NCBI GenBank assembly: GCA_963790775.1
Contig: CAWBPR010000012.1
Coordinates: forward strand, 2,763-66,762
Length of the DNA stretch: 64,000 nucleotides
Reading direction: 5' to 3'
Source of the DNA: an uncultured Gammaproteobacteria bacterium
GTDB taxonomy: Bacteria > Pseudomonadota > Gammaproteobacteria > Chromatiales > Chromatiaceae
Below are positions 12,498 through 35,701 of the stretch, in pieces; the first letter of the stretch is position 1, and each line of letters starts with the position of its first letter. The notes below the pieces were generated by a model. That model made no database searches and was not told the origin of the DNA. It was given only the letters and a program-made list of their open reading frames with translations. Both the position numbers and the translations under genes were made by a program.

Positions 12498-12524
12498 TTG
12501 CTGATGCACTTATTGTTCCTGAGC

Positions 12525-20406: not shown

Positions 20407-21359
20407 TGTTCGGATTAAAACCTGACTGGTCGCTGGAAGTCTTCGAGCGTTATTTCACCATGGGTGACTATGCGGGGGGCGAGGCCCGCTGGTGCCCCGG
20501 ATGCGGGGACCACGCGGTGCTGACTGCTGCGCAAAAGGTGTTGCGTGATGAACAGCAACGCCCGGAGATGTCCGTGTGCGTCTCCGGCATCGGTTGCTCC
20601 AGCCGCATGCCGCACTACATGGGCACGTTCGGCTTTCACGGCCTGCACGGGCGCGCCCTGCCCGTCGCCTGCGGCATCAAGTCCAGACGCCCGGAGTTGG
20701 ATGTGTGGGTAGCCAGCGGCGACGGCGACTGCTTCTCCATCGGCACCGCTCACTGGATTCACGCCCTGCGCTACAACATGGACATGACCCTGATGGTATT
20801 TGACAACTCGGTCTACGGATTGACCAAGGCCCAGACCTCCCCGACCAGCCCCCAGGGTTTCAAGACCAACACCCATCCATTTGGCGCCATTCTCGAGCCC
20901 CATAATCCGTTGACGGTGACTCTGGGAATCACCAACATCTCGTTCGTGGCCCAAGTGGTGGACTGGAACCCTCCGCTGCTCTACGAGACCCTCAAGGCCG
21001 CCTACCGACACAAGGGAACCGGGTTCGTGCGTATCATCCAGCGTTGCCCGGTTTATGCGGAACGGTTATCGAAGGAGTTGCAGGACAATCCGAGCCGCTT
21101 CGTGCTGCTGGAACATCCGCGGGGGATAGCGCTGGACAAGGGCGTGCGCCGCCAGTTTCCCAACCGGGTGGAGCACGATCCATCGGATCTCAACCGGGCC
21201 TTCCAACTCGCCGCCGATACAGCGTTGTTACCGGTGGGATTGCTCTATCACAACCCGCACGCTCCCTGCTACGAGGACCTGTCAAGCCAGGGTGTCGAGA
21301 TGACTCCTGAAGAGAGACTCGCCGGTTTTAATGCCGTGCTGGATCGCATCACTGTCTGA
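20406..21359 (+). CDS. korB: 2-oxoglutarate:ferredoxin oxidoreductase, beta (TPP-binding) subunit
   Basis: 317 aa with WCPGCGDH and an intact TPP motif (SGDGDCFSIG..VFDNSVYGLTKAQTSPT). The ATG shares 1 nt with the korA TGA. Confidence 0.9.
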   Translation: MFGLKPDWSLEVFERYFTMGDYAGGEARWCPGCGDHAVLTAAQKVLRDEQQRPEMSVCVSGIGCSSRMPHYMGTFGFHGLHGRALPVACGIKSRRPELDVWVASGDGDCFSIGTAHWIHALRYNMDMTLMVFDNSVYGLTKAQTSPTSPQGFKTNTHPFGAILEPHNPLTVTLGITNISFVAQVVDWNPPLLYETLKAAYRHKGTGFVRIIQRCPVYAERLSKELQDNPSRFVLLEHPRGIALDKGVRRQFPNRVEHDPSDLNRAFQLAADTALLPVGLLYHNPHAPCYEDLSSQGVEMTPEERLAGFNAVLDRITV

Positions 21360-21427: not shown

Positions 21428-23944
21428 ATGACAACCACACACTCGGCCGGCAATGAACAGCAGACACAGTTGCCAGGCAGTGAACCCAAACAGCTGCCGT
21501 CCCTGCCGACAGCGGTGAAGGATGCCAGGGCTACCCGGGAACTGATGTTCGTGCTGCGTCATTTCCACCTCGGTGACCCCGCCGCCCGGGAGCAGCTGGA
21601 AGCGCTCGGCGATGACTATCTCCCGGCGCTGCTTGATCCATTCCGGGATAGTTCCAGGCTGCGTTACGACTACCCCCTGTTCCTTTTCCCCCCGCATACC
21701 GATGCCGGGTATCAGTCAGCCGATGAACTCGCCTGCCCCCTGGCGCAATGGTTCCAGCAGGCAGCGGCCAGCTTTACCCAGGGGGACGATAAGGCGCGCG
21801 TCCTCAAGGACCACTTCCCCTGGCTGGAACATCGTGTCCGCGAGTTGCTGCAGCAACGGGAAGGTCCGGTAGATGCCGGGGCGACCCTGGCGGAGTCCTG
21901 CCGCCTTTTACAGGCGCACCTGGCGCTGGCCGAACAGGATCGGAAGCGATTGAACAACGATATCGAGCAATTGCTGCAGGCTGTTCCGGAGGGGGCGCAG
22001 CTGCTGAGCTATGGCCGCTATCCCGCCCTGCACCTGCTGATCCATGCCGTCCGCAGTCAGATTTCACATCTCCAGACCCGCTTTCAGGAGCGGATCAATC
22101 AATCCATCCGCGGTCTCAAGGAACTGCTCGAAGTCGAGTGGTCGAAATCAGTCGAATCCATCGAGCCAAAACTGGCCCGAGATAGTATCGGTCTGGGTGG
22201 CGATCGCTTCGACCCCGCCATTCTGTCGGCGGTGATGGATCACTCCCGGGGCACCCAGAGAATGTCTCTGCAGCGGCGCGAGCGTATCGGACAAGCCCTG
22301 AAGATCATGGAGTCCTGGGCGCCGGATCCGGTGCTCGTCCATTTTCTGCACATGGGCACTCTGACCGATCCCTGGGTGCAAGATGTCGACTTCTGCCATG
22401 AGATAGCCGCTGGCGACCCCTGCGCCAAGGCGATGGAGGTTTTCGACCGCGAAGCGGAAAAGCTCACCGCAGTTTTCGGTGCGGTGCGCATCGCACAACT
22501 CGAGATCGAAGGTATTTACACGGCTGAGATCCACGATCCCTGGTTTGCGAATTTCACCTGGGAGGCCTTCTCTCAGGAAGAACTGAGACTGGTGCCATCG
22601 GTCATCGCATTGGGCTCGGCAGACCAGATGGCTGGAGAGGGCCTGCGTACTTTCTCCCGTCTGTTAAGCTCCGGGCGGCCGGTGCAGATCCTGATCCGGG
22701 TCCTGGCCCACGCCAACCCGGGCGCCGGACTCGACGAAGATGCGTTCCGGAATTTCCGCACCGAGCTGGGTTATCTGGGCATCAGCCATCGTCAGGCGGT
22801 TGTCGACCAATCGTCTGCCGCCCGCCATCAACATCTGTTGCAGTGCTATCTTTCGGCCCTGGATGCCACGCGCACCAGCCTGCATGTCATCAACACCGGT
22901 CTGCGTCCTCCCGGCAGGCTGCTCCCGCTCAATGCATGGCTGGTGGCCGGCGCCGCCATCGAAAGCCGCGCTCATCCGTTTTTCCGCATCAATCCGGAAG
23001 CGGGGGATTCCGCCGCCATGCGGATGGATTTCAGCGGCAACCCCCAGCAGGATAGAGACTGGCCCCTGCACCCGTTCCACTATCTGGACGACAACGGCAA
23101 CCCTGTCGACAGCGAACTGGCTTTCACCTTCGCCGACTATGCCCTGTTGATCGAACGACTGCGGGACCATTTCCGTCTGATTCCCGCGGGCTGCGACTCT
23201 GACGGACTAGTGTCGATACAGGATTATCTGGCGATGAACCCGGAGCAATCTTATCAGCGGGTGCCGTTCGTCTGGGCCATAGACGGCAATGCCATACTGC
23301 ACCGGCTGGTGATTTCCCGAGAACTCGCTCAGACCTGCCGTGACCGCCTCAATTACTGGCACACCCTGCAGGAAATGGCCGGCGTGCGAAACCGCTATGT
23401 CGAACTGGCGGTGGAAAAAACCCGGGCAGAGGAGCGCAAACTTGCCAGTGAGGAACGTGAGCGTCTGCGGGCGGAACATGCCGAGGCGCTGGAGCGCGTG
23501 CGGAACGAGGCTGCCGGTGAGGCCATGCAGCGCCTCACCGATGTCCTGTTGGGACTGGACTCCATAGGAATGCAGGGGGCGTACCTGCCGTCATCCGGTT
23601 CTTCCGCGGAACAGCCTGAAACCCCAGACGAGCAGGAGTCGGCACAACAGGCGATGCTTGGCACGCCGGACGAAGAGGATGAAGAACTGTCCTTTGACGA
23701 GCCCTGGATAGATACTCCGTTGTGCACCAGCTGTAATGACTGCCTGCCAATCAATCCACTGTTGTTCACCTATAACGAAGAAAAACAGGCGCTGCTCGGA
23801 GACCTGAGCAGCGCCACTTATGCCCAGCTGGTGCAGGCGGCCGAACTCTGTCCCGCCAGGTGCATCCATCCGGGCAAGCCACTTGATCCCGACGAGCCGG
23901 GCCTGGCCGAGTTGATCGATCGCGCCGCACCGTTCAACCAATGA
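21428..23944 (+). CDS. uncharacterised 838-aa protein: unknown N-domain + degenerate PFOR domain-VI-like core + coiled coil + C-terminal single-cluster ferredoxin domain
   Basis: The central region parallels the C-terminal third of the 1534-aa PFOR-like ORF and canonical PFOR: SVIALGSADQMAGEGLRTFSRLLSSGRPVQILI, ELGYLGISHRQAVV, SLHVINTG, RAHPFFRINPEAGD. The C-terminus has CTSCNDC..CPARC (CxxCxxC..CP). The stop overlaps the rnfB ATG (ATGA). Confidence 0.7.
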   Translation: MTTTHSAGNEQQTQLPGSEPKQLPSLPTAVKDARATRELMFVLRHFHLGDPAAREQLEALGDDYLPALLDPFRDSSRLRYDYPLFLFPPHTDAGYQSADELACPLAQWFQQAAASFTQGDDKARVLKDHFPWLEHRVRELLQQREGPVDAGATLAESCRLLQAHLALAEQDRKRLNNDIEQLLQAVPEGAQLLSYGRYPALHLLIHAVRSQISHLQTRFQERINQSIRGLKELLEVEWSKSVESIEPKLARDSIGLGGDRFDPAILSAVMDHSRGTQRMSLQRRERIGQALKIMESWAPDPVLVHFLHMGTLTDPWVQDVDFCHEIAAGDPCAKAMEVFDREAEKLTAVFGAVRIAQLEIEGIYTAEIHDPWFANFTWEAFSQEELRLVPSVIALGSADQMAGEGLRTFSRLLSSGRPVQILIRVLAHANPGAGLDEDAFRNFRTELGYLGISHRQAVVDQSSAARHQHLLQCYLSALDATRTSLHVINTGLRPPGRLLPLNAWLVAGAAIESRAHPFFRINPEAGDSAAMRMDFSGNPQQDRDWPLHPFHYLDDNGNPVDSELAFTFADYALLIERLRDHFRLIPAGCDSDGLVSIQDYLAMNPEQSYQRVPFVWAIDGNAILHRLVISRELAQTCRDRLNYWHTLQEMAGVRNRYVELAVEKTRAEERKLASEERERLRAEHAEALERVRNEAAGEAMQRLTDVLLGLDSIGMQGAYLPSSGSSAEQPETPDEQESAQQAMLGTPDEEDEELSFDEPWIDTPLCTSCNDCLPINPLLFTYNEEKQALLGDLSSATYAQLVQAAELCPARCIHPGKPLDPDEPGLAELIDRAAPFNQ

Positions 23945-24804
23945 GCAGCTATGTCATCGCACCAGCCATCATGACCGGGATCGGCCTGGTTTTTGCGGTT
24001 ATCCTGGCGGTGGCCTATCGGTTTCTGAAGGTGCAGGAAGATCCCCGGATCGAGGAAACCGAAGATCTGCTGCCAGGCTCCAATTGCGGCGCCTGCGGCC
24101 AACCCGGCTGTCACGCCTTCGCCGAACAGCTGGTGCAAGGGGCCGCTTCGCCCAGCAAGTGCACGGTCGCAAGCCAGGAAGTCATCGATTCGGTGGCGGA
24201 ACTGCTGGATGTCGATCCAGGTCAGCAGGAAAAACGCGTGGCCCGGCTGCATTGCGCCGGCGGCAAGGGCCAGGCTTACCAGATCGCCGAGTACCAGGGC
24301 TTCGACAGCTGTCTGGCTGCTGCCGTGGTATCCGGTGGCGGCAAGGGCTGCTCCTGGGGCTGCTTTGGTCTGGGCGACTGTCAGAAAGACTGCACTTTCC
24401 ACGCTATCACGATGAATTTCAATGGCCTGCCGGTGGTGGACGTGGACCGGTGCACCGCCTGCGGCGATTGCGTAGACACCTGCCCGAGGGACCTGTTCGA
24501 GCTGCTGCCCTTGAGTCAGCATTTATTCGTCCAGTGCAAGGCGCCGCTTGCCGGAGAGATGGCCGTCTCTCTCTGCATCACCGCATGCGATGCCTGTGAG
24601 CGCTGTGTGGCGGATGCGGCGCCGGGCCTTATCCGCATGCAGGACAATCTGCCGGTAGTGGATTATACAGGCGGTGGCCCGGCCCGGCCGGAGGCGACCT
24701 ATCGTTGCCCCACCGGCGCCATCCAGTGGCTGGAAGGCGCCCAGTTCGCAGACCAGCACACCACCAGAACCAAGAGTGAGACCCGCTATGCCCGGCTTCG
24801 CTAA
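23941..24804 (+). CDS. rnfB: Rnf complex subunit B (N-terminal TM anchor, CxxCGxxGC cluster domain, polyferredoxin)
   Basis: 287 aa. The TM helix is IAPAIMTGIGLVFAVILAVAY. Motifs present are NCGACGQPGC, CSWGCFGLGDCQKDC and CTACGDCVDTCP. Confidence 0.85.
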   Translation: MSSYVIAPAIMTGIGLVFAVILAVAYRFLKVQEDPRIEETEDLLPGSNCGACGQPGCHAFAEQLVQGAASPSKCTVASQEVIDSVAELLDVDPGQQEKRVARLHCAGGKGQAYQIAEYQGFDSCLAAAVVSGGGKGCSWGCFGLGDCQKDCTFHAITMNFNGLPVVDVDRCTACGDCVDTCPRDLFELLPLSQHLFVQCKAPLAGEMAVSLCITACDACERCVADAAPGLIRMQDNLPVVDYTGGGPARPEATYRCPTGAIQWLEGAQFADQHTTRTKSETRYARLR

Positions 24805-27800
24805 TACCGCCTTGCGGTTATTGAGACGCGTGCTCGGGACGACCTCCCGCACCACAGGTCCCTACGCCGGCAATCCGACCGTCCTCGACGGCAATACCGC
24901 GGTCGCAGTCACAGAAGCGGGGATCAGCGAAGCCGCGGGGTTGGGGGCCACCTTTCCTGCAGAGACCGCCGGACTGGCCTGGCGCAGCGAACAATGGCGC
25001 CACGGCAGCAACCTTGCGGGCAGCCCGCTCAGCACCCTGGCGGCGGAAGGACCCCGCGGCGCGCTGGCTGCCAGCATCGGCCTGGCGATGAGTGGCGTCA
25101 GGGCCACCAGCTTTCTGTCAGGCCCCGATCTGGTCCAGGCCATGGATCTATTGACACTCGCCGCCGGTCGCCGTCTGCCCCTGGTGATACACCTCAGCGA
25201 GCGCAGTCTTGCGGGCCATGCCCCTGCCCTGGGGAGCGGTCACCAGGCCCTGCACCTGAGCGCCGATGCAGGCTGTTTGCTGTTCACCGCAGCCAACGTG
25301 CAGGAGGCGGTGGATTTTTCCCTGATCGCCCGGCGCGTCGCAGAACAGGCCCTGATCCCAGCTCTGGTCGCCATGGATGCTGAGCAGACAGCCCTTGCCG
25401 TACAGGAGGTCCGGTTGCCCCCTGCAGAGCTGGTGGAAAGCTTCCTCGGGCGGCCCGGTGATCAGATACCGGCCCCGACGCCTGCGCAACAGTTGCTGTT
25501 GGGGGATGAGCGCAGGCGGACGCCCTGTTGGCACGACCCTGACCGCCCGGTGATGCTGAATGCTCTGCAAGCTCCGCAAGTTTGGGGGCTGGCCAGAGCT
25601 GCCGGGAAAGCCTGGTTCGACGACCATCTGGCGGCATGCCTCGAGGATGCCTTTGAACGTTTCGCCGCACAGACCGGGCGGCGGCATCGGCAGCTGTCAT
25701 CCTACCGCGTGGAAGATGCCAGACTGATCCTGGTGGCGCAGGGCGCGGCCGTCGAAACCCTGGAGGCGGTGGCAGATCATCTGCGCAGCAGGCACCGGCT
25801 GAAAACCGGCGTGCTGGGGGTCCGCTGTCTGCGTCCCTTTCCTGGAGCGGAGCTGGCGCGGCTCCTGGGCAAGCTGGGCAATGGCGCCAGAGTCTGCGTA
25901 CTGGAGCGCCTGGATACCCCCCTGGCCACGGATCCGCCCTTGTTGCGCGAGGTCCGCGCCACGCTTGACCACGCCTTGGAAAATGACCGCTTTGGGACGG
26001 ATACCCACCCTGACTATCCGGCGCTGAAAGAAAAACACCGGCCCAGGTTCCTGTCAGTCGTGTATGGCCTCGGTGGGTTTCCCCTGCGCGCTGCCGACCT
26101 GGCGGCCTTGTGCCGAAATCTGGCAACGATCCGCCGGCCCCAGGTCTATCTGGGGATTAATTTTTCACACACCTCCAGTGTCTATCCCAAACGACAGGTG
26201 TTGCTTGACCGCCTGCGCCGAAGCTATCCGGAGATCGTCGATCTGGGACTGACTGATGCCGCCGCTTCACCCGACCTGCGCCCGGCAGATGCCTTGACGC
26301 TGACCATACACCGGCTGTCCGGTGGCGCAGGCGAAGGGTTGTTGGCGGAAGCGGCAAGCTTCGCGCATCGGCTCCTGGGCGGCGGATTGCGCAGCAGACC
26401 GGCATTGTTCACCGAGCCTTGGGGCGGAGTCTGCCTTGACCGGCTTACCTTCGGCGCCGCAGACCTGCGGGACCCGGGAGACGAAACCCCCATCGATCTG
26501 GCGCTGATTACCACTGATTCCGACCTGCAGGAACTCTATCCTCAGCAGGGGCTCGATGCAGGATCCGCCCTGCTGGTGCAGAGCGCCCTTCCACATGAGG
26601 CGCTTTGGGCGCAACTGCCCGGCGCCGCTCGGGCTGTGCTGAAGGCGGCGGGCCGCCACCTGTACATCGTATCTCCCCTCGAAGGCCCCGCCTCCACCCG
26701 CAATGAATATCTGCTGGGCGCCTTGTTTGCGGTACTGCTGGACACCGGCCTGCTGAAGGTCACCCAGCGCCGCCTGCTCAGCGTCCGCGAGGAGATACTG
26801 CAGCAATCTGTAGTGGACGCCGGACAACAGCTGGCAGTTTTCGAAGCCGGCATGCAACAGGTCCAGCTGATCAACAGTGCACGTCTCCCCCTTGAGCCTG
26901 CGCAGGCGGCTATCGCTGCCGACGATGAGGCGCCTCCCCTGGTGCGCCGGCTGGGCAACATCGATAATGCCTACGACAGCCTCCCCCGCTTCTGGGACCA
27001 GGTCGGAGTGCTCTACAAACAAGGCAACACCAGTGAACTGGCGCCGGACCCCTATCTGGCGGTGGGGGCGGTGCCGCCCCTGTCGGCCAGTTTTCGCGAC
27101 CTAAGCCCGCTGCGGAGCGAGCTGCCCGTTTTTGAACCCGCGTTATGCACGGGGTGTGGCGCCTGCTGGAGCGCCTGCCCGGATTCGGCCATCCATACGC
27201 TGGCGATTTCACCTGCCCGTCTGATCGATGCGGGTATCCGCAGGACGGGTGCTGAGGCGCTGCGGCCGCTCGTCTCCAAGCTCGCGGCAGGCATCGCGGA
27301 GCAGTGCTCGCGCGAGGATTCCAGCGCTTCGACAGTGGCGCAGCTAGTGACTGGGGCCTACGACAGGCTGAAGGGGAAACTGCCCTTCCCGGAAGAACGC
27401 AAGGCAGCGATCAACGCAGGCCTGGATCAGTTGCTGACGGCATTCGGCTGTCTGCCCGTTGCAGTCACTGCCGCCCTGTTTTTCGAGTCCGAGAACCAGG
27501 CAAAGGGCAGCGGAGAGCTGCTGGCGCTGGCAGTGGACACAGGCGGTTGTAAGGGCTGCGGGATCTGCATCCAGGCCTGCGAGCCGGGGGCGCTGCAGCT
27601 TGCCCATCAAAGCGCTGATGTCCTGTCTCAGGCGCGGCGGATTCAGCAGGCCTGGCACGAGCTGCCCGACACTCAGCCGGCAACAATTCAACGCCTGGGA
27701 CAGCACCCCGGAGTCGGTGCAACGGCAGCGGCGCTGCTTGGACGCGGTGCGGGACTGGCCATCACCGGCGGCGACGGCGCGGAACCTGGATCCGGGGCCA

Positions 27801-29392
27801 AGCTGGCGCTACGCCTGGTGCTGGCGGTCGTGGAGGGTCAGCAAGCTCCGCGGTTTGAGGCTTTCCTGAAAGAGATCCATGCCACCCGTGGGAAAATAAC
27901 CGGATTGATCCGCGATATCCTGGCGGATGCCCTGCCCGCCGATGACCTGGATGCTCTGTCCCGTGGTCTGGATAACATCAATACCCGGCATGCCGATATG
28001 AGCACACTGCTAGGTGAAGCGGAACAGGCGATTGGCAGCGCGCTTGACGCCGCCAGGCTGCGCCGGCTGGTTGACTTGGCGCGGGCGCTGGGCGACCTCG
28101 CCTGGCGGGTGTCCAGCGGACGCCAGGGAATGGGGCGCGCCCGGGTGAGCCTGGTGCTCTCACCCGGCTCTATGGTGAGTTGGGCCAGCAGCTTCCCGCA
28201 CAACCCGTTTTCAGTTCCCGTCACCCTGGACCCCAGTGGTGACGGCGCTCAGCTTGCCGCCGGCTTGCTGGAAGGTCAACTGCGCCAGGCGACACAGGGT
28301 TTTGTACTGATGCGCAAGGCGCGCGTGGAGCTGCAGCGCCCGGCGGACGCGGCCCGCGCCTGGTCAGACCTCGAGGCTTTGTCCTGGCGTGACCTCGATG
28401 ATGCAGAGCGGGCCTTATGTCCCTCACTGCTTCTGGTAGGCGACAGCAGCCTGCTGAGCGGCGCTGGCCTGGGGCAGGTGAGCATTATTCTCGGTAATGA
28501 TTTGCCGGTTAAAATGCTGTTGCTCAGCGACCTGGACCTGGGGATCGACAAACCGGCAGGCCTGCAGGCTCCCCTGGCCGCAGTGGATGATGTCAGCGTA
28601 GATCTAGGCCTGTTGGCGATCGCCCGGCGCGGCGCCTGCATCGCCCAGACCGCGATCAGCGCCAGCGCGCATTTTGCCGCAAGCATTCACTCGGCCTTTA
28701 CCTTCCGGGGTCCGGCCCTGCTGCATGTGCATGCCCCAAGCCCGGCGCGCCATGGCTTCGCACCGGACCAGACCCTGCACCGGGCCCAGGCCGCAGTGGA
28801 CGCCAGGGTGTTTCCCCTGTTCCGTTATGATCCTGAGGCCGAAGGCGTGTTCGGCTCCCGCATCAGTCTGGATGGCAACCCGGCTCCTCTGGATACCTGG
28901 AACATGATTTCGGATGGGAGCGCCTGCACCCCTGCCCAATGGGCGTTGGGCGAGGAGCGCTTCTGCGATTGGTTCCTGCCGTTGCAGGAGGACGCTGCCG
29001 ATCCAACCCCAATAGCGGAATATCTAACCCTGCCCCGGCGGGAGCGAAGCAAACGGACGCCCTTTGTGGAACAAACAACCAGTGGCAGCGAGACCCAGCG
29101 CTTCTCGGTTGATCAGTGGCTGGTGCGCATCAGCGAGGAGCGGCAAGACTCCTGGCGCATGCTGCAGGAGCTGGCAGGGCTGGTGACTCCATTTACTGCG
29201 CGGGTAGAGCGAGCGGCGGAAGCACGTGTTGCTGCGGACCACAAGGCTGAGCTGAGCGCACAGGCAGAAGTCTACGAACAGCGTCTTCGGGATCTGCGCA
29301 ACGCGCTTCAGCAAGAAAACCGCCAGCAGATGCGTGAACGCCTGATGCAGCTTGCCGGCTACCGCGACGCTGCCGTACGCAAATCGGGTTAG
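24788..29392 (+). CDS. PFOR (pyruvate:ferredoxin oxidoreductase)-like protein, 1534 aa, catalytic motifs apparently degenerate
   Basis: The start is trimmed to the first ATG after the rnfB overlap (MPGFANTALRL). Collinear with PFOR domains I-VI: DGNTAVAVTEAG.., LSGPDLVQAMDLL.., VRCLRPFPG..VLERLD, and a 2x[4Fe-4S] domain (CTGCGACWSACP at 27146, CKGCGICIQACEP at 27548). The TPP region reads GDSS..LLLSDLDLG and the FPLFRYDPEAEG box is present. Confidence 0.8.
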   Translation: MPGFANTALRLLRRVLGTTSRTTGPYAGNPTVLDGNTAVAVTEAGISEAAGLGATFPAETAGLAWRSEQWRHGSNLAGSPLSTLAAEGPRGALAASIGLAMSGVRATSFLSGPDLVQAMDLLTLAAGRRLPLVIHLSERSLAGHAPALGSGHQALHLSADAGCLLFTAANVQEAVDFSLIARRVAEQALIPALVAMDAEQTALAVQEVRLPPAELVESFLGRPGDQIPAPTPAQQLLLGDERRRTPCWHDPDRPVMLNALQAPQVWGLARAAGKAWFDDHLAACLEDAFERFAAQTGRRHRQLSSYRVEDARLILVAQGAAVETLEAVADHLRSRHRLKTGVLGVRCLRPFPGAELARLLGKLGNGARVCVLERLDTPLATDPPLLREVRATLDHALENDRFGTDTHPDYPALKEKHRPRFLSVVYGLGGFPLRAADLAALCRNLATIRRPQVYLGINFSHTSSVYPKRQVLLDRLRRSYPEIVDLGLTDAAASPDLRPADALTLTIHRLSGGAGEGLLAEAASFAHRLLGGGLRSRPALFTEPWGGVCLDRLTFGAADLRDPGDETPIDLALITTDSDLQELYPQQGLDAGSALLVQSALPHEALWAQLPGAARAVLKAAGRHLYIVSPLEGPASTRNEYLLGALFAVLLDTGLLKVTQRRLLSVREEILQQSVVDAGQQLAVFEAGMQQVQLINSARLPLEPAQAAIAADDEAPPLVRRLGNIDNAYDSLPRFWDQVGVLYKQGNTSELAPDPYLAVGAVPPLSASFRDLSPLRSELPVFEPALCTGCGACWSACPDSAIHTLAISPARLIDAGIRRTGAEALRPLVSKLAAGIAEQCSREDSSASTVAQLVTGAYDRLKGKLPFPEERKAAINAGLDQLLTAFGCLPVAVTAALFFESENQAKGSGELLALAVDTGGCKGCGICIQACEPGALQLAHQSADVLSQARRIQQAWHELPDTQPATIQRLGQHPGVGATAAALLGRGAGLAITGGDGAEPGSGAKLALRLVLAVVEGQQAPRFEAFLKEIHATRGKITGLIRDILADALPADDLDALSRGLDNINTRHADMSTLLGEAEQAIGSALDAARLRRLVDLARALGDLAWRVSSGRQGMGRARVSLVLSPGSMVSWASSFPHNPFSVPVTLDPSGDGAQLAAGLLEGQLRQATQGFVLMRKARVELQRPADAARAWSDLEALSWRDLDDAERALCPSLLLVGDSSLLSGAGLGQVSIILGNDLPVKMLLLSDLDLGIDKPAGLQAPLAAVDDVSVDLGLLAIARRGACIAQTAISASAHFAASIHSAFTFRGPALLHVHAPSPARHGFAPDQTLHRAQAAVDARVFPLFRYDPEAEGVFGSRISLDGNPAPLDTWNMISDGSACTPAQWALGEERFCDWFLPLQEDAADPTPIAEYLTLPRRERSKRTPFVEQTTSGSETQRFSVDQWLVRISEERQDSWRMLQELAGLVTPFTARVERAAEARVAADHKAELSAQAEVYEQRLRDLRNALQQENRQQMRERLMQLAGYRDAAVRKSG

Positions 29393-29423: not shown

Positions 29424-30764
29424 ATGCTAGCCCTGTCCAGACTGTTCAAGCGCGGCTTCTCCCACGGTATTCATCCACATGCATACAAGGAGCAGACTGC
29501 CGGACTGCACACCCAGCGCATGCCCTTCGTCGAGCGCTATATACTTCCCGTTCACCAGCACCTGGGAGCCCCTTCCAAGCCTGTGGTGGAAGTGGGGCAG
29601 CGGGTGGGACGCGGGACATTGATCGCCGAACCGGGGGCCTTCGTCTCCACCAGTCTGCACAGCCCGGTTACCGGCTGGGTCCGGGCCATCGGCCGACGGC
29701 GCTTTCCCGGCGGCCGCTATGCACAGGCCATCGAGATCGAGGCGGACCCCTATGCCACCCAACGGCTGGATGTCGAGCGCCCTCCCGATTGGCGCGGCCT
29801 GTCGCTGGAGGATTTCGTTTCCGTGATGCAGCTGACGGGTATCGTCGGCCTGGGCGGGGCCTCGCTTCCCGCCCACGTCAAATACTCCCTGCGCGAGGGG
29901 GTGAAGATCAAATACCTGATCGCCAACGGCGCTGAGTGCGAGCCCTATCTGACCAACGACCACCGGGTGATGGTGGAGCGGCCTGACGCCCTGCTGCGCG
30001 GTATGGAAATTCTGCAAACTCTGCTCGGCGCCGAGGAATCCATCATCGGCATCGAACTCAACAAGCCCGATGCCATCGAGGCGCTGCGTGCGCGCATCCC
30101 TTCCGACCGGCCCTGCCGGGTGGCGCCCCTGCGGGTCAAGTATCCCCAGGGTGATTCGAAAATGCTCATCAAATCCCTGTTGAACATAGAGGTTCCCACG
30201 GGTCTGCACGCGGCGGACCTGGGGATCATTATGAATAATGTAAGCACCATTGCCGCGATCGCGGACTACTTCGACACCGGCCTGCCCTATATCGACCGCA
30301 TGGTCACGGTGTCTGGTCCCGGTATCGAATACCCCGCCAATCTGATCGTGCCATTGGGTACGCCGGTGCGAGAGGTGTTGCGTTTCTGTGGCGGCCTTAA
30401 ACGCGACACCAAGGAGGTCATCATGGGCGGCCCCATGATGGGCACCCCGATCGCCAGCCTGGACGCTCCGATCATCAAATCAAGCTCCGGGGTGCTGGCC
30501 TTTACGGCCGAGCAGACGGCCCGCCCCAAAGAGTATCCCTGCATCCGTTGCGGCCGTTGCGTGGAGGCCTGCCCCTATTTTCTCAATCCGTCCAAACTGG
30601 CCCGTCTGGCCAAGGCGCGCCTGTTCGAAAAGATCAAGCAGGCCAACGTGATGGAGTGTGTGGAGTGCGGTTCCTGCACCTACTCCTGTCCCTCGGGTAT
30701 CCCGATCGTGCAGCTGATCCGAAGCGCGAAAAGCGACATCCGCAGTAAGAAGGGGGCGAGATGA
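29424..30764 (+). CDS. rnfC: Rnf complex subunit C
   Basis: 446 aa. Motifs present are FSHGIHP, HLGAPSKPVVEVGQRV, GLGGASLPAHVK, ANGAECEPYLTNDHR, KYPQGDSKML, and two 4Fe-4S motifs (CIRCGRCVEACP, CVECGSCTYSCP). Confidence 0.88.
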   Translation: MLALSRLFKRGFSHGIHPHAYKEQTAGLHTQRMPFVERYILPVHQHLGAPSKPVVEVGQRVGRGTLIAEPGAFVSTSLHSPVTGWVRAIGRRRFPGGRYAQAIEIEADPYATQRLDVERPPDWRGLSLEDFVSVMQLTGIVGLGGASLPAHVKYSLREGVKIKYLIANGAECEPYLTNDHRVMVERPDALLRGMEILQTLLGAEESIIGIELNKPDAIEALRARIPSDRPCRVAPLRVKYPQGDSKMLIKSLLNIEVPTGLHAADLGIIMNNVSTIAAIADYFDTGLPYIDRMVTVSGPGIEYPANLIVPLGTPVREVLRFCGGLKRDTKEVIMGGPMMGTPIASLDAPIIKSSSGVLAFTAEQTARPKEYPCIRCGRCVEACPYFLNPSKLARLAKARLFEKIKQANVMECVECGSCTYSCPSGIPIVQLIRSAKSDIRSKKGAR

Positions 30765-31768
30765 TGCACAAAGACCCCAAGCTGCTGGTGCAGCCAGCCC
30801 CCTTATTGAAGCAGAACATGAGCACGGTGCAGAGCATGCGCGATGTGCTCTACGCCCTGCTGCCGGCAACCCTGGCGGCAATCTGGCTGTTCGGCCTGGG
30901 GGCGCTGCTGGTGCTGCTGGCGTGCATTCTGGGGGCAGTATTCACCGAGTGGATCTTCTCGCCTGCGGAACAGCGCTCGGTGCGGCTGCTGGATACCAGC
31001 GGGGTGCTGACCGGTTTGCTGCTGGGGCTCTCCCTGCCCCCCGCGCTGCCGCTGTGGATGGCCTTCCTGGGCGGGGTTGTTTCCATTGGCCTGGGTAAAC
31101 TGATCTGGGGCGGGTTGGGGCAAAACCTGTTCAATCCGGCCCTGGTTGGCCGGGCTTTTCTGCTTGCAACTTTCCCCAATGCCATGACCACCTGGAGCTC
31201 CCAGCTGAGCGGGGAAGGCTTTTTCCAATGGCACCCTTCCAATCTTGCCCTGCCTTTCATGCAGCCCGAATATGACATGCTCTCTGCGGCCACGCCCCTG
31301 GGACTGATGAAATTCGAACAGCAGCCCACTGCGCTGCTGGACTTGATGCTGGGCAATACCGCCGGCTGCCTGGGAGAGACCAGCGGTCTGCTGTTGCTGG
31401 CGGGCGGGGTGTTCCTGCTGCTGAGGCGGGATATTGACTGGCGCATCCCGACGGGTATTTTGCTCTCCGTGGCAGTGCTCTCCGTTGTCTTGTATGCCCT
31501 CGACGCCGCCCGCTTTCCGGACCCTCTGTTCGCCGTGTTCTCCGGCGGGTTGTTGCTGGGCGCCTTCTACATGGCCACCGACCCGGTCACCTCACCGCTG
31601 ACCCCGCGCGGCGCCTGGATCTTTGCGCTTGGCGTTGGCCTGCTGGTGGTGGTCATCCGACTCTTCGGCGGCTTTCCAGAAGGAGTGATGTACGCGATTC
31701 TACTGATGAATGCGGCCACCCCGCTGATCGACCGTTTTATCCAGCCCCGGCTGTTCGGCAAGGTGTGA
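30761..31768 (+). CDS. rnfD: Rnf complex subunit D (polytopic membrane, FMN site)
   Basis: 335 aa and multi-TM, with NqrB/RnfD-type motifs (LFNPALVGRAFL, SAATPLG, YMATDPVTSP). The ATG overlaps the rnfC stop. Confidence 0.88.
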   Translation: MMHKDPKLLVQPAPLLKQNMSTVQSMRDVLYALLPATLAAIWLFGLGALLVLLACILGAVFTEWIFSPAEQRSVRLLDTSGVLTGLLLGLSLPPALPLWMAFLGGVVSIGLGKLIWGGLGQNLFNPALVGRAFLLATFPNAMTTWSSQLSGEGFFQWHPSNLALPFMQPEYDMLSAATPLGLMKFEQQPTALLDLMLGNTAGCLGETSGLLLLAGGVFLLLRRDIDWRIPTGILLSVAVLSVVLYALDAARFPDPLFAVFSGGLLLGAFYMATDPVTSPLTPRGAWIFALGVGLLVVVIRLFGGFPEGVMYAILLMNAATPLIDRFIQPRLFGKV

Positions 31769-31775
31769 AGATCAG

Positions 31776-32432
31776 ATGAAGAACCGGACTCAGCCCCCCA
31801 TCAAGAACGTTGAACCCGGCTCCAGCCGGCTGGTGGCCACCCTTGGCTTCGCCGGCCTGCTGTCGGGCCTGATCATCGTGTCGGTGTACGAGGCCACGCT
31901 GCCGACTATCTCCGCCTACAAGGCCAAGGTGCTGCAGGAAGCGGTGTTCAGGGTGCTTCCGGGCACTACTCGCCTGCAGCAACTGGCTTACCGCGAGGAC
32001 AGGCTGACTGCGGTGGAGAAGTTAGAGAAGGACGAGGAGTCCATCTTCGGCGGCTATGACACGCAGGGGAATCTTGTGGGCTATGCCATCCCCGGCTCAG
32101 GCCCCGGCTTCCAGGACATCATCCGGCTGCTGTACGGCTACCTGCCGGAACAACGCAAGGTGGTCGGCATGGAGATCCTGGAAAGCCGTGAAACCCCGGG
32201 GCTCGGGGATAAGATCTACAAAGACGCCGGGTTCGTGGCTAATTTCGATGATTTGTCTATCGAGCCGGAACTGGTGGTGGTGAAGAAGGGCAACAAGGCC
32301 GCTGCGAACGAGATAGACGCCATCACCGGAGCGACTATTTCCTCCAAGGCAGTGGCGCGCATCATCAATCAAGCGAACCAGCAATGGTCTGCGCGCCTGG
32401 AGGCTCCGGATGAAAACAAAGCTGTCGACTAG
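31776..32432 (+). CDS. rnfG: Rnf complex subunit G (FMN-binding)
   Basis: 218 aa with an N-terminal TM anchor. Motifs present are ETPGLGDKI and the flavinylation motif DAITGATISSKAV. Confidence 0.88.
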   Translation: MKNRTQPPIKNVEPGSSRLVATLGFAGLLSGLIIVSVYEATLPTISAYKAKVLQEAVFRVLPGTTRLQQLAYREDRLTAVEKLEKDEESIFGGYDTQGNLVGYAIPGSGPGFQDIIRLLYGYLPEQRKVVGMEILESRETPGLGDKIYKDAGFVANFDDLSIEPELVVVKKGNKAAANEIDAITGATISSKAVARIINQANQQWSARLEAPDENKAVD

Positions 32433-32485
32433 GCAGGGTGTATCAGGCACCTGCGAATCACAGGTTTTAAACTAGGTTAAAAACC

Positions 32486-33136
32486 ATGCCGCAAAAAAAA
32501 CAGGATGCCACTCAGGAGTTCATCAAGGGTCTGTGGCGGGACAATCCGGTCTTCGTCCAGGTGCTGGGCATGTGTCCCATGCTGGCGGTCACCAACTCGG
32601 CGGTGAACGCCCTGGCCATGGGTGGGGCGACCTTCTTCGTGCTGGTGACCTCGAGTTTTCTCGTCTCGTCGCTGAAACACTGGATTCCAAAGCAGGTGCG
32701 CATCTCCACCTATATCATCATCATCGCCACCTTCGTCACCGTCACTGATTTCACCCTGCAGGCCCTGGCGCCAGAGATCCATAAGGAACTGGGGGCCTTC
32801 ATCCCGCTGATTGTGGCCAACTGCATGATCCTGGGTCGGCAGGAAGCCTTCGCCTCGCGCAATTCGGTGCGTTTGGCCGTGGTAGACGCGCTGGGCATGG
32901 CGAGTGGTTTTATGTTCGCCCTGCTCTCCCTGGGGGCGGTGCGTGAGATACTGGGTGAGGGCTCCCTGTTCGGAATCAAGCTGTTCAGCGAGAATTTCGA
33001 GCCCTGGGTGATCATGATTCTGCCGCCCGGCGGCTTCCTCACCCTGGGCCTGCTGTTGCTGTTTTTCAATTGGCTGAAGGAGCGCAAGGATAAACTGATT
33101 CAACGGCTGGACGAGATGGAGGTCGAAGCACGATGA
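32486..33136 (+). CDS. rnfE: Rnf complex subunit E
   Basis: 216 aa. Motifs present are GLWRDNPVFVQVLGMCP and FIPLIVANCMILGR, typical of RnfE/NqrD. Confidence 0.88.
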   Translation: MPQKKQDATQEFIKGLWRDNPVFVQVLGMCPMLAVTNSAVNALAMGGATFFVLVTSSFLVSSLKHWIPKQVRISTYIIIIATFVTVTDFTLQALAPEIHKELGAFIPLIVANCMILGRQEAFASRNSVRLAVVDALGMASGFMFALLSLGAVREILGEGSLFGIKLFSENFEPWVIMILPPGGFLTLGLLLLFFNWLKERKDKLIQRLDEMEVEAR

Positions 33137-33894: not shown

Positions 33895-33949
33895 AACCGA
33901 TGGATTTGTTTTCAGGGCCTATTACACACTGATCCAAGGGCACAAATAA

Positions 33950-33967
33950 AAGCGCCTGGTAGCGCTT
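33950..33967 (+). terminator. short hairpin AAGCGC-ctggta-GCGCTT at the end of the rnf block
   Basis: The 6-bp stem is read directly and is preceded by AAATAAA. There is no clear U-tract, so this is weak. Confidence 0.25.
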
Positions 33968-33993
33968 GAATCAATTGATGTGATTGATTTTAT

Positions 33994-35681: not shown

Positions 35682-35701
35682 TCTTACCATACCTTTATGC
35701 C

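What the first reader, a model, noticed from the sequence alone, without database searches (positions are those of the whole stretch)
24788..29392. 1534-aa PFOR homologue appears catalytically dead: TPP motif and proximal-cluster cysteines are gone, but the 2x[4Fe-4S] ferredoxin domain is kept
By-eye alignment to the Desulfovibrio africanus-type PFOR layout shows collinearity through domains I-VI. The landmarks are DGNTAVAVTEAG; LSGPDLVQAMDLLTLAAGRRLPLVIHL; VRCLRPFPGAEL..VLERLD; the two ferredoxin motifs CTGCGACWSACP (27146) and CKGCGICIQACEP (27548); and the C-terminal FPLFRYDPEAEG box. At the catalytic positions, canonical [10 protein letters not shown]...DTEVYSNTGGQ reads VGDSSLLSGAG...LSDLDLGIDKP (about 28440-28560). 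This loses the GDG..N(N) Mg-TPP signature. The stretches that should supply the four Cys of the TPP-proximal cluster are also changed: GACSGCGETPY becomes TGGDGAEPGSGA, ATGCSSIWG becomes SPGSMVSWA, and AYATCI becomes VHAPSP. It also carries a C-terminal coiled-coil-like tail (..AEARVAADHKAELSAQAEVYEQRLRDLRNALQQENRQQMRERL) that is absent from classical PFOR. A PFOR scaffold retaining only the distal clusters would be an electron conduit or adaptor, not an enzyme.
Basis: partly seen in the sequence, partly recalled or inferred. Interest (0 to 1): 0.85.

Follow-up and report, generated by a model that had tools for sequence, protein, structure and literature searches.

The report
Cofactor-less PFOR relative inside Rnf operon
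A large, widely conserved protein that databases and papers call pyruvate:ferredoxin oxidoreductase has lost everything needed for that chemistry, keeps two iron-sulfur clusters, and is almost always encoded right after rnfB, so it is most likely an electron-transfer adaptor of the Rnf membrane complex rather than an enzyme.

Summary
ORF 24788-29392 (+) is intact, 1534 aa. It is collinear with PFOR domains I-VI (family profile vs 6CIN, E 1e-85).

- **Kept:** all eight Cys of the 2x[4Fe-4S] ferredoxin domain (46/46 sequences).
- **Lost:** the GDG...N Mg-TPP motif, the YPITP motif and all four proximal-cluster Cys. No substitute motif or Cys set exists anywhere in the protein.

It is not a pseudogene. 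At least 436 species genomes carry a relative, about 1100 50%-identity clusters match, and selection is purifying.

1. The gene is locked to rnfB, which lies directly upstream in 77 of 78 loci (median gap -6 bp). It sits in a ten-gene cluster, korA-korB-X-rnfB-PFL-rnfCDGEA, kept in Gammaproteobacteria, Myxococcota, Calditrichota and Ca. Eisenbacteria.
2. X, the 838-aa ORF at 21428-23944 annotated "ferredoxin", is a second degenerate PFOR paralogue. It carries a ferredoxin domain on a disordered acidic linker.
3. Published rTCA reconstructions of tubeworm symbionts count this gene as a working PFOR.

Best reading: a PFOR-derived pseudoenzyme that wires RnfB to ferredoxin-dependent enzymes, chiefly the adjacent two-subunit 2-oxoacid oxidoreductase. 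Loss of PFOR chemistry is shown. The conduit role is inferred.

The parts
18505..20406 (+). korA: OFOR alpha subunit (domains III+I+II), a bona fide enzyme
   Evidence: Pfam POR, POR_N and PFOR_II. TIGR03710 at 493 bits, above its cut-off. Best PDB hit is Magnetococcus OGOR 6N2N_A, E 4e-86.
20406..21359 (+). korB: OFOR beta subunit (domain VI) with an intact TPP motif and cluster ligands; serves as the internal positive control
   Evidence: TPP_enzyme_C. The alignment to 5B46_B shows CPGCGD, GIGCS, GDGD, N...YGLTK.Q and CP all retained.
21428..23944 (+). Paralogue B (838 aa, annotated 'ferredoxin'): a second degenerate PFOR-derived protein. It has a domain-VI-like PP fold, the same long C-terminal helix, a disordered acidic linker (aa 711-755, nt 23558-23692) and a C-terminal single-cluster ferredoxin domain (aa 756-838, nt 23693-23941).
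   Evidence: BLASTP against the PFL gives 26% identity over 564 aa, E 2e-23. hhalign gives 99.7% probability, E 4e-27. Fer4_13 hit. AF2 pLDDT 76.9, with the linker below 50. Top Foldseek hits are PFOR and OFOR beta subunits, E 5e-6. The Calditrichota orthologue is full length (1460 aa) and aligns to the PFL profile over aa 20-1520, E 1e-66.
23941..24804 (+). rnfB: membrane-anchored polyferredoxin subunit of Rnf. Its stop overlaps the PFL start by 17 nt.
   Evidence: Pfam FeS and Fer4. NCBIfam RnfB models. N-terminal hydrophobic helix. Directly upstream of the PFL in 77 of 78 loci, median gap -6 bp.
24788..29392 (+). PFL: 1534-aa PFOR-like protein, the finding itself
24875..26158 (+). PFL domains I-II (aa 30-457), PYR-type fold. 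YPITP is replaced by GATFP. PFOR Glu64 aligns to Pro89, with E87 two residues upstream. Arg114 corresponds to R139.
   Evidence: HMM alignment to 6CIN and 1B0P, domain E 1e-46 to 1e-49. Column statistics.
26159..27124 (+). PFL domains III-IV equivalent (aa 458-779), the least conserved part
   Evidence: Aligned to PFOR aa 403-714, E 3e-12. Only 2 of 243 columns in aa 458-700 reach 90% conservation.
27125..27655 (+). PFL ferredoxin domain V (aa 780-956). It has two CxxCxxCxxxCP motifs (nt 27146-27181 and 27548-27586) separated by a roughly 100-aa helical insert.
   Evidence: Fer4 hits. All eight Cys invariant in 46 of 46 sequences. AF2 pLDDT 82-95 over this stretch.
27767..27796 (+). GGDGAEPGSG loop (aa 994-1003), at the position of PFOR's GACxGCGE (Cys812/Cys815). 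It has no Cys and is strongly conserved.
   Evidence: D996 and E999 in 45 of 45 close members and S1002 in 44 of 45. S1002 in 25 of 25, E999 in 21 of 25 and D996 in 19 of 25 distant members. Low AF2 confidence here. The positional mapping is by order only.
28439..28558 (+). Degenerate Mg-TPP motif: GDSSLLSGAGL (aa 1218-1228) through SDLDLGIDKPA (aa 1247-1257), in place of GDG-x(25-30)-N
   Evidence: Residue-level HMM alignment to 6CIN aa 960-1000. The Asp position is N16/D14/S9 and the Asn position is G/L.
28730..28759 (+). HAPSPARHGF (aa 1315-1324): PFOR Cys1071 replaced by Ser1318
   Evidence: HMM alignment pairs 'aPc.inhG' with 'aPsPerhG'. S1318 in 44 of 45 close and 22 of 25 distant members.
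28838..29389 (+). C-terminal extension (aa 1351-1534). It contains the conserved W..LQELAGLVTPFT motif and one helix of about 50 residues (aa 1472-1522, nt 29201-29353). The extension is shared with paralogue B.
   Evidence: AF2 helix 728-778 of the 745-1534 construct. The equivalent helix in paralogue B is aa 656-707. The two are aligned.
29424..33711 (+). rnfC (29424-30764), rnfD (30761-31768), rnfG (31776-32432), rnfE (32486-33136), rnfA (33133-33711)
   Evidence: Pfam and NCBIfam hits above cut-off. Present downstream of the PFL in about 79-80% of loci with enough flank.

Best explanation
**What it is.** The 1534-aa protein is a PFOR-derived pseudoenzyme.
- It keeps the PFOR scaffold (domains I, II, III, V, VI) and the two [4Fe-4S] clusters of the built-in ferredoxin domain.
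- It cannot bind Mg-TPP in the canonical way and has no proximal cluster. It therefore cannot oxidise or synthesise a 2-oxoacid.

**How it most likely works.** It acts as an iron-sulfur adaptor subunit that docks on the membrane-anchored polyferredoxin RnfB. Its partner is a truncated paralogue (838 aa), which carries a ferredoxin domain on a flexible acidic tether. Together they would relay low-potential electrons between the Rnf complex and ferredoxin-dependent enzymes. The main client would be the adjacent two-subunit KorAB 2-oxoacid:ferredoxin oxidoreductase, which has no ferredoxin domain of its own.
- With the ion gradient driving Rnf backwards, this would feed reductive carboxylation in the rTCA cycle.
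- In the forward direction it would couple 2-oxoglutarate oxidation to NAD+ reduction and ion export.

**Shown:** homology, cofactor-site loss, cluster retention, purifying selection, the paralogy, and the conserved gene order.

**Inferred:** physical association with RnfB, paralogue B and KorAB; the direction and path of electrons; pairing of the two paralogues through their domain-VI-like cores and long C-terminal helices.
For: **Homology**
- Profile vs PFOR structures gives E 1e-85, collinear over domains I-VI.
- An AF2 model of aa 745-1534 (pLDDT 76.8) hits PFOR best, then OFOR beta subunits.

**Loss of catalytic features**
- No TPP_enzyme_C hit.
- The residue-level alignment shows GDG, the Asn loop and Cys1071 lost.
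- YPITP is lost.
- No alternative conserved Cys or GDG..N exists anywhere.
- KorB next door keeps all of them.

**Retention and selection**
- Eight ferredoxin Cys in 46 of 46 sequences.
- More than 120 full-length orthologues at 47-98% identity.
- 1120 50%-identity clusters at E<=1e-30.
- At least 436 species genomes.
- dN/dS 0.16-0.29 in domains V, VI and the tail against a 97%-identical orthologue.
- Domain III, which I recall as the CoA-binding domain of PFOR (not checked here), is the least conserved.

**Link to Rnf and Kor**
- rnfB lies directly upstream in 77 of 78 loci. Paralogue B is present in 85%, korAB in 83-84% and rnfDGEA in about 80%.
- The same cluster occurs in Myxococcota and Calditrichota.
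- In Beggiatoaceae only the rnfB-PFL pair remains.

**Partner**
- Paralogue B shares domain VI and the tail, and carries a tethered ferredoxin.
- Two-subunit OFORs have an open pocket for an external ferredoxin (PMC5020499).

**Expression**
- The gene is transcribed in the Escarpia symbiont, listed as 'por' beside rnfB, 'por-like' and korBA (PMC6315080 supplement).
- A 'PFOR-like' gene in Endoriftia falls together with a dimeric korAB under sulfide limitation (PMC11636981). I did not confirm that it is this family.
Against: - No direct evidence of protein-protein contact or of electron transfer.
- Many polar residues at the former active site are conserved: D996, E999, S1002, H1315, S1318, H1322, D1250, and in the close clade E87, R90, H135 and R139. 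A passive wire would not obviously need these, so a new ligand or metal site is possible.
- In purple sulfur bacteria paralogue B stands alone, away from korAB.
- Tubeworm symbionts lack adjacent rnfCDGEA.
- The ten-gene unit is therefore not obligatory. Only rnfB-PFL is.
- I could not superpose the model on 1B0P, because coordinates are not exposed by the tools.
Confidence: 0.55

Rival explanations
1. Neofunctionalised enzyme. The old TPP and cluster-A pocket has been rebuilt to bind another cofactor, metal or substrate, for example an Asp/Glu/His/Ser metal site or a nucleotide at the Gly-rich GGDGAEPGSG loop. The two ferredoxin clusters would then serve that new chemistry, with electrons supplied or removed by RnfB.
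For: Replacement residues are strongly conserved where the cofactors used to sit. Domains I and VI are as conserved as the ferredoxin motifs. The Gly-rich loop precedes a helix and is modelled with low confidence, as ligand-dependent loops often are.
Against: Most of these residues are not universal. D996, H1315, E87 and R139 vary in Myxococcota-type members. No known cofactor motif was detected by Pfam or NCBIfam. The conserved residues could equally hold the domain I/VI interface together, or form a protein-protein interface. Paralogue B lacks them.
Confidence: 0.2
2. Non-redox structural, protective or assembly factor. The scaffold stabilises or shields RnfB and/or KorAB, for example against O2 in microaerobic sulfur oxidisers, or regulates them. 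Its own clusters would be vestigial or sensory rather than part of the main electron path.
For: The pseudoenzyme architecture. Occurrence mainly in organisms of oxic-anoxic interfaces: sulfur oxidisers, Woeseiaceae, Myxococcota. Paralogue B has lost the domain-V clusters altogether.
Against: Absolute invariance of all eight Cys across phyla argues that the clusters are functional. So does translational coupling to a polyferredoxin.
Confidence: 0.12
3. It is a working pyruvate:ferredoxin oxidoreductase, as assumed in published rTCA reconstructions and in JGI and NCBI product names.
For: Overall PFOR homology. Product names. The interpretation in the PMC6315080 supplement.
Against: GDG...N, YPITP and the four cluster-A Cys are all absent, with no substitute anywhere. 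TIGR02176 scores 127 bits against a 911 cut-off. There is no TPP_enzyme_C hit. According to PMC5020499 these residues are invariant in OFORs.
Confidence: 0.03
4. Decaying pseudogene or annotation artefact.
For: None beyond the missing catalytic motifs.
Against: The 4.6-kb frame is intact in hundreds of species from several phyla. dN/dS is well below 1. Synteny is conserved. The gene is transcribed.
Confidence: 0.01

Closest known systems
Homodimeric pyruvate:ferredoxin oxidoreductase (Desulfovibrio africanus 1B0P, Moorella thermoacetica 6CIN)
   Same: Collinear domains I, II, III, (IV), V and VI. The built-in 2x[4Fe-4S] ferredoxin domain has both CxxCxxCxxxCP motifs. The C-terminal 'PL(F/Y)RY(D/N)P' box is kept. 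The PP fold of domain VI is recovered by Foldseek.
   Different: - No GDG...N Mg-TPP motif, no YPITP, and no Cys at the four proximal-cluster positions.
- A roughly 100-aa helical insert between the two ferredoxin motifs.
- A roughly 110-aa helical insert in the N-terminal half of domain VI.
- About 120 aa more C-terminal sequence than 6CIN, ending in a 50-residue helix.
- Domain III poorly conserved.
- Encoded between rnfB and rnfC.
Two-subunit 2-oxoglutarate/2-oxoacid:ferredoxin oxidoreductase KorAB (Magnetococcus marinus 6N2N, Sulfolobus tokodaii 5B46)
   Same: Same superfamily. Encoded three genes upstream in the same operon. It is the likely client of the electron relay.
   Different: KorAB keeps every catalytic motif and has one cluster and no ferredoxin domain. 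The PFL is the mirror image: a ferredoxin domain but no catalytic site.
Accessory polyferredoxins that connect membrane ion-driven complexes to anabolic OFORs. Examples are PorE/PorF of the Methanococcus maripaludis POR operon and the polyferredoxins of Eha/Ehb (from my own knowledge, not checked here). RnfB itself is another (7ZC6, 9ERI hits).
   Same: The proposed role: a protein-bound Fe-S relay between an energy-converting membrane complex and a 2-oxoacid synthase, in place of or in addition to free ferredoxin.
   Different: Those are small ferredoxin-repeat proteins. Here the relay is carried by a 170-kDa enzyme-derived scaffold plus a paralogue with a tethered ferredoxin.
OFORs hard-wired to pyridine-nucleotide reduction. 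One is the NADH-dependent phenylglyoxylate dehydrogenase PadEFGHI (family names appear). Another is the PFOR-NADPH-P450-reductase fusion (PNO) of Euglena and Cryptosporidium (own knowledge).
   Same: The idea of coupling a 2-oxoacid oxidoreductase to NAD(P) through dedicated redox modules rather than a diffusible ferredoxin.
   Different: Those use soluble flavoprotein modules and a catalytically active OFOR core. Here the coupling partner would be the ion-translocating Rnf complex, and the PFOR-like component is catalytically empty.

Membership tests
OFOR/PFOR superfamily (homology) | Domain I (PYR) and domain II folds | tested here: met
   POR_N at E 5e-24 and PFOR_II at 1e-9. Profile vs 6CIN domain E 7e-46 over aa 30-448.
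OFOR/PFOR superfamily (homology) | Domain VI (PP) fold | tested here: met
   HMM alignment of aa 1207-1342 to PFOR 960-1106. The AF2 model hits PFOR at E 2e-12 and OFOR beta subunits at E 4e-7.
OFOR/PFOR superfamily (homology) | Domain III (gamma, PF01558) | tested here: inconclusive
   No Pfam POR hit in the window protein. The family profile aligns aa 480-700 to PFOR domain III at E 3e-12, and the Calditrichota member has a POR hit. It is the least conserved region.
Catalytically competent PFOR/OFOR (enzyme) | GDG-x(25-30)-N(N) Mg2+-TPP diphosphate-binding motif in domain VI (invariant per PMC5020499) | tested here: not met
   The aligned positions read G-D/N/S-S...L-D-L-G-L. No TPP_enzyme_C hit. 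No recurrent GD[GSA]..N anywhere. Only the Calditrichota member keeps GDDG...DSQGYVATGGQ.
Catalytically competent PFOR/OFOR (enzyme) | Four Cys ligands of the TPP-proximal [4Fe-4S] cluster (DaPFOR residue numbers 812, 815, 840 and 1071 are from my recollection, not checked here) | tested here: not met
   C1071 aligns to S1318 in the HMM alignment. There are no conserved Cys columns in aa 957-1350 except single C1211 and a half-conserved column at aa 988.
Catalytically competent PFOR/OFOR (enzyme) | YPITP motif with the substrate-binding Thr (DaPFOR Thr31) | tested here: not met
   Aligned to G-A-S/T-F-P, with Thr replaced by Phe or Tyr in 42 of 45. Absent in distant members.
Catalytically competent PFOR/OFOR (enzyme) | Domain-I Glu hydrogen-bonding TPP N1' (Glu294a in StOFOR per PMC5020499; equated with DaPFOR Glu64 from my own knowledge) | tested here: inconclusive
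   The HMM pairs it with Pro/Ala89. A Glu/Asp at 87, two residues upstream, is kept in 43 of 45 close members but only 6 of 25 distant ones.
Catalytically competent PFOR/OFOR (enzyme) | Carboxylate-binding Arg (DaPFOR Arg114) | tested here: met
   R139 in 44 of 45 close members and 12 of 25 distant ones. It is retained in the window protein but not family-wide.
2x[4Fe-4S] bacterial-type ferredoxin domain | Two CxxCxxCxxxCP motifs | tested here: met
   C787/790/793/797 and C921/924/927/931 are invariant in 46 of 46. Fer4 hits.
Rnf complex (as an additional subunit) | Encoded within the rnf operon and co-inherited with rnf genes | tested here: met
   It lies between rnfB and rnfC. rnfB is upstream in 77 of 78 loci and rnfDGEA downstream in about 80%.
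Rnf complex (as an additional subunit) | Physical presence in the purified complex | not testable with these tools
   The solved Rnf entries that my PDB searches matched (7ZC6, 9ERI) matched only through RnfB's ferredoxin motifs. No experiment is available for this family.
Pseudoenzyme | Loss of catalytic residues together with purifying selection and phylogenetic persistence | tested here: met
   for the loss. for the persistence and selection.

The most novel reading that the evidence does not exclude
The two PFOR-derived paralogues form a pseudo-dimer that mimics the PFOR homodimer, pairing through their domain-VI cores and long C-terminal helices. This pseudo-dimer would be the structural core of a previously unrecognised membrane supercomplex, RnfABCDGE-PFL-B-KorAB. 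In it, a ferredoxin domain tethered to paralogue B swings between the PFL clusters and the open ferredoxin pocket of KorAB. The assembly would be a hard-wired, ion-gradient-coupled 2-oxoglutarate:NAD+ oxidoreductase / 2-oxoglutarate synthase. It would explain how microaerobic sulfur oxidisers and other non-strict anaerobes supply low-potential electrons to the rTCA carboxylase without a free, O2-exposed ferredoxin pool.
Probability: 0.25. Interest if true: 0.88.

Novelty: new variant of a known kind. Interest (0 to 1): 0.72.

Why it matters
1. **It corrects a functional call that is already in use.** In the Escarpia tubeworm symbiont a gene of this family is counted as a working PFOR in the published rTCA reconstruction (PMC6315080 supplement). 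The 'PFOR-like' isoform of Endoriftia (PMC11636981) and a Thiomargarita 'por' gene (PMC4853749) may be the same family, but I did not verify that. Pyruvate synthesis in these organisms must rest on other isoforms.
2. **It defines a large uncurated family.** It covers at least 436 species and about 1100 50%-identity clusters. Public names are 'PFOR', '4Fe-4S binding protein', 'ferredoxin' or 'hypothetical'.
3. **It points to an unknown layer of Rnf biology.** The Rnf complex has been treated as six subunits, and no paper in the library reports an accessory subunit of this kind. Here a 170-kDa Fe-S protein is translationally coupled to rnfB across phyla, usually with a ferredoxin-less OFOR next to it.
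4. **It makes an open question testable.** The question is how reverse-running Rnf hands low-potential electrons to CO2-fixing 2-oxoacid synthases in oxygen-exposed bacteria.
5. **It shows an enzyme being recycled into wiring.** The catalytic core of PFOR was emptied while its internal electron-exit module was kept.

Tried and rejected
I modelled aa 745-1534 instead.
- **hhalign of the C-terminal family profile against the single KorB sequence** was too weak to use (probability 0.6%).
- **The N-terminal half of domain VI (aa 957-1206)** could not be aligned to PFOR by any HMM. The C812/C815/C840 equivalences therefore remain positional guesses. I replaced that test with a whole-protein scan for conserved Cys and GDG..N.
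- **My first dN/dS run** assumed equal length and was corrupted by a frame mismatch. I redid it on a codon-aware alignment. The first 75 or so codons of the comparison locus L089 are frameshifted in that assembly and were ignored. Counts are small (42 synonymous, 25 non-synonymous over aa 458-1534), so the broad conservation is the stronger argument.
- **My synteny rule undercounts rnfC** (62%), because the PFL end coordinate overshoots in some loci. The rnfD/G/E/A counts (about 79-80%) are the reliable figure.
- **The idea that paralogue B always travels with korAB is rejected.** In Thiorhodococcus and Thiocystis it stands alone.
- **The idea that the whole ten-gene cluster is obligatory is rejected.** Beggiatoaceae and Thiosymbion keep only rnfB-PFL, and tubeworm symbionts lack adjacent rnfCDGEA.
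- **Literature searches** for a prior description of a TPP-less PFOR or an Rnf-associated PFOR-like subunit found none.
- **Model coordinates are not exposed**, so no superposition on 1B0P and no pocket inspection was possible.

Full report

The frame 24788-29392 (+) is open for 1534 codons. The longest ORF starts at GTG 24674. However, the ATG at 24788 gives the N-terminus MPGFANTALRLLRR shared by orthologues, and it overlaps the rnfB stop codon at 24804.

The two CxxCxxCxxxCP motifs begin at nt 27146 and 27548. The degenerate 'catalytic' stretch covers about nt 28436-28555.

Pfam finds POR_N, PFOR_II and two Fer4 motifs. It finds no TPP_enzyme_C, POR or EKR. The NCBIfam PFOR equivalog TIGR02176 scores 127 bits against a trusted cut-off of 911.

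**2. Rigorous alignment**

phmmer against the PDB hits PFOR of M. thermoacetica (6CIN) and D. africanus (1B0P).

| Profile | Sequences | E-value vs 6CIN |
|---|---|---|
| Close family | 45 | 1e-60 |
| Broad family | 46 | 1e-85 |

The match is collinear.

| Family aa | PFOR equivalent |
|---|---|
| 30-457 | Domains I-II |
| 480-817 | Domains III, IV and the first ferredoxin motif |
| 901-956 | Second ferredoxin motif |
| 1207-1348 | C-terminal half of domain VI, including the PL(F/Y)RY(D/N)P box |

In that alignment:
- PFOR '[20 protein letters not shown]...VLVLDTEVYSNTGGQ' pairs with family 'slllvGdsevlagrGlaqla...vlvl-adLdlglaar'.
- PFOR 'YAPC-INHG' pairs with 'HAPSPERHG'.

In domain I:
- YPITP becomes G-A-S/T-F-P, so Thr31 becomes Phe.
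- The TPP-activating Glu aligns to Pro/Ala89.
- The carboxylate-binding Arg114 is kept as R139.

Yan et al. [quoted passage not shown]

The stretch aa 957-1206 (N-terminal half of domain VI) cannot be aligned by HMMs. It contains a helical insert of about 110 residues. The equivalences C812->D996, C815->E999 and C840->S1128 are therefore positional only.

**3.

I scanned 46 diverse family members for conserved Cys and for any GD[GSA]-x(22-34)-N.

The only Cys columns kept in at least half of the sequences are:
- the eight ferredoxin Cys (46/46);
- C1211 (40/46);
- C442 (31/46);
- one column at aa 988 (23/46; Gly in the window).

No GDG..N match recurs at a common position. The catalytic ligands are not 'elsewhere'.

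The same operon supplies a positive control. KorB (20406-21359) keeps CPGCGD, GIGCS, GDGD, the Asn loop and the final CP. KorA's best solved relative is the Magnetococcus 2-oxoglutarate:ferredoxin oxidoreductase.

**4. Structure**

An AF2 model of aa 745-1534 (19-sequence alignment, pLDDT 76.8, pTM 0.74) is matched best by PFOR (E 2e-12), then by OFOR beta subunits and other TPP PP-domains.
- The ferredoxin domain is modelled with high confidence.
- The GGDGAEPGSG loop is not.
- The C-terminal 'coiled-coil-like' tail is a single helix of about 50 residues (aa 1472-1522), preceded by the conserved W..LQELAGLVTPFT motif.

**5. Not a pseudogene: a large hidden family**
- The search for homologous proteins returned more than 120 full-length proteins (1460-1640 aa, 47-98% identity). 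They come from Ca. Thiodiazotropha, Thiosymbion, Chromatiaceae, Thiomargarita and Parabeggiatoa. They are variously named 'PFOR', '4Fe-4S binding protein' or 'hypothetical'.
- An exhaustive HMMER search of 1.84 billion representatives found 1120 50%-identity clusters at E<=1e-30.
- These include a 'Deltaproteobacteria' MAG cluster and a Calditrichota member, and a member encoded on a Myxococcota contig.
They include Woeseiaceae, Thiohalomonadaceae, Achromatium, tubeworm endosymbionts and Ca. Eisenbacteria.

Within the close clade the replacement residues are themselves nearly invariant:
- D996 and E999: 45/45.
- S1002, H1315, S1318, H1322 and R139: 44/45.
- D1250: 42/45.

Across the most distant 25 members:
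- S1002 (25/25), S1318 (22/25) and E999 (21/25) persist.
- D996, H1315, E87 and R139 vary.

Only the Calditrichota protein still reads GDDG...DSQGYVATGGQ. That looks like an evolutionary intermediate.

Domain III is the least conserved part, with 2 of 243 columns at 90% or more. Domains I and VI and the ferredoxin motifs are the most conserved.

Against a 97%-identical orthologue (L089), dN/dS is 0.16-0.29 in domains V, VI and the tail. The counts are small.

**6. Genomic context**

The window's gene order is:

| Gene | Coordinates |
|---|---|
| PRPP synthase | 17371-18318 |
| korA | 18505-20406 |
| korB | 20406-21359 |
| 838-aa ORF (paralogue B) | 21428-23944 |
| rnfB | 23941-24804 |
| PFL | 24788-29392 |
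| rnfC | 29424-30764 |
| rnfD | 30761-31768 |
| rnfG | 31776-32432 |
| rnfE | 32486-33136 |
| rnfA | 33133-33711 |

I tested 88 loci by tblastn with the window's proteins.

| Neighbour | Loci with the gene / loci with enough flank |
|---|---|
| rnfB directly upstream, same strand | 77/78 (median gap -6 bp) |
| 838-aa ORF | 60/71 |
| korB | 55/66 |
| korA | 53/63 |
| rnfD/G/E/A downstream | about 79-80% |

- The identical ten-gene order recurs in a Chromatiaceae genome with pntAB and a CoA-ligase gene upstream.
- It also recurs in Myxococcota, there followed by apbE, and in Calditrichota.
- Beggiatoaceae and Thiosymbion keep only rnfB-PFL.
- Tubeworm symbionts keep korAB-X-rnfB-PFL without adjacent rnfCDGEA.

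The invariant core is therefore rnfB plus PFL.

**7. A second degenerate paralogue**

The 838-aa ORF is annotated only as 'ferredoxin' in public records.
- It is homologous to the last 520 or so residues of the PFL: BLASTP 26% identity over 564 aa, E 2e-23; hhalign 99.7%, E 4e-27.
- The shared region includes the degenerate domain VI, the FR.(D/N)P box, the W..LQE(L/M)AG motif and the long terminal helix.
- Its AF2 model (pLDDT 76.9) hits PFOR and OFOR beta subunits best.
- It also lacks GDG..N and the cluster Cys.
- After the helix comes a 45-residue acidic segment modelled as disordered (aa 711-755), then a single-cluster Fer4_13 ferredoxin domain.
- In Calditrichota the orthologue is full length (1460 aa). 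It aligns to the PFL profile over aa 20-1520 (E 1e-66) but has a deletion where the first ferredoxin motif should be.

The ancestral cluster therefore held two full-length PFOR-like paralogues flanking rnfB. One kept the internal ferredoxin domain. The other lost it, was truncated in most lineages, and carries a tethered ferredoxin instead. Both co-occur even when unlinked, as in Thiorhodococcus and Thiocystis.

**8. Mechanism**

*Shown:* the protein cannot be a TPP-dependent 2-oxoacid oxidoreductase. It retains two ferredoxin-type clusters. It is under selection. It is genetically coupled to RnfB.

*Inferred:* it is an Fe-S adaptor that docks on RnfB, the ferredoxin-facing, membrane-anchored subunit of Rnf. 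It would extend the Rnf electron path towards ferredoxin-dependent enzymes.

The usual neighbour, two-subunit KorAB, lacks domain V and offers an open pocket for an external ferredoxin (PMC5020499). The tethered ferredoxin of paralogue B is a natural candidate to fill that pocket.
- Running backwards (NADH plus ion gradient), the module would drive 2-oxoglutarate synthesis. This fits its position in the rTCA 'cluster 2' of tubeworm symbionts and the neighbouring pntAB.
- Running forwards, it would make 2-oxoglutarate oxidation ion-motive. This fits heterotrophic carriers such as Myxococcota.

The main rival is a remodelled ligand or metal site at the old active centre. This is suggested by the conserved Asp, Glu, Ser and His residues and by the Gly-rich loop. 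I give it about 0.2.

**9. Comparison with the literature**
- Rubin-Blum et al. 2019 list 'por, rnfB, por-like, korB, korA' in the Escarpia symbiont. They treat the large gene as a functional PFOR supplying pyruvate (supplement of PMC6315080), and the gene is transcribed there.
- Mitchell et al. 2024 call an Endoriftia gene 'PFOR-like' and report that it falls together with a dimeric korAB under sulfide limitation (PMC11636981). I did not confirm that it is the same family.
- Neither paper notes the missing cofactor sites.
- Searches for a TPP-less PFOR, an Rnf-associated PFOR-like subunit or an Rnf-OFOR supercomplex found nothing.
- No Pfam or NCBIfam model is specific for either paralogue.

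**10. Verdict**

The case is stronger and broader than first described. It is a phylum-spanning pair of PFOR-derived pseudoenzymes built into an rnf-kor gene cluster. One of them is currently counted as an active PFOR in a published metabolic model.

Confidence that it is not a PFOR is about 0.95. Confidence in the RnfB-coupled electron-adaptor role is about 0.55.

Noticed in passing
window 21428-23944 (+): An 838-aa ORF annotated 'ferredoxin' in public records is a truncated second PFOR-like paralogue. It has a degenerate domain VI and the same tail helix as the PFL, then a disordered acidic linker and a C-terminal Fer4_13 ferredoxin domain.
   Followed up: yes
window about 33800-40300 (SNF2-family helicase ORF 35594-38530): GC content drops to about 46-47% in the 34-36 and 38-40 kb bins, against 56-65% in the rnf cluster. 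In the 97%-identical relative L089, rnfA is followed within about 0.6 kb by the peptidase S49 gene, which lies at 40411-41439 in the window. About 6 kb carrying a SNF2/ResIII helicase therefore looks like a strain-specific insertion.
   Followed up: partly
window 10045-12669 (-): An 874-aa multihaem cytochrome with cytochrome c7/c3 and MtrC/MtrF domain II/IV hits. This is an outer-membrane-type extracellular electron-transfer cytochrome in what appears to be a Sedimenticolaceae or Thiodiazotropha-like sulfur oxidiser.
   Followed up: no
window 1688-3076 (+): A tyrosine recombinase (phage integrase with an N-terminal SAM-like domain) lies near the window start, next to a low-GC bin (2-4 kb, 50%).
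   Followed up: no
window 49187-51136 (-) and 51181-52407 (-): A 649-aa protein combines a CLP1-type P-loop/AAA_25 N-terminus with a metallo-beta-lactamase-fold C-terminus. It is adjacent to a PGA_cap (capsule synthesis/CapA) gene. This is an unusual fusion and was not examined.
   Followed up: no
L007 8993-13726 (Calditrichota, P0259): This family member still carries GDDG...DSQGYVATGGQ and a Pfam POR (domain III) hit, while lacking the cluster-A Cys. It is a possible intermediate in the loss of catalysis. Its partner paralogue (L007 3742-8124) is full length at 1460 aa.
   Followed up: partly
L089 10001-10230: The near-identical orthologue is called 25 aa shorter. It reads out of frame relative to the window over roughly aa 34-72. 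This is probably an indel error in that metagenome assembly rather than biology.
   Followed up: partly
L008 18567-19838 (Myxococcota): An apbE (flavin transferase) gene directly follows rnfA in the Myxococcota version of the cluster. This is consistent with a self-contained Rnf maturation unit travelling with the kor-PFL genes.
   Followed up: no
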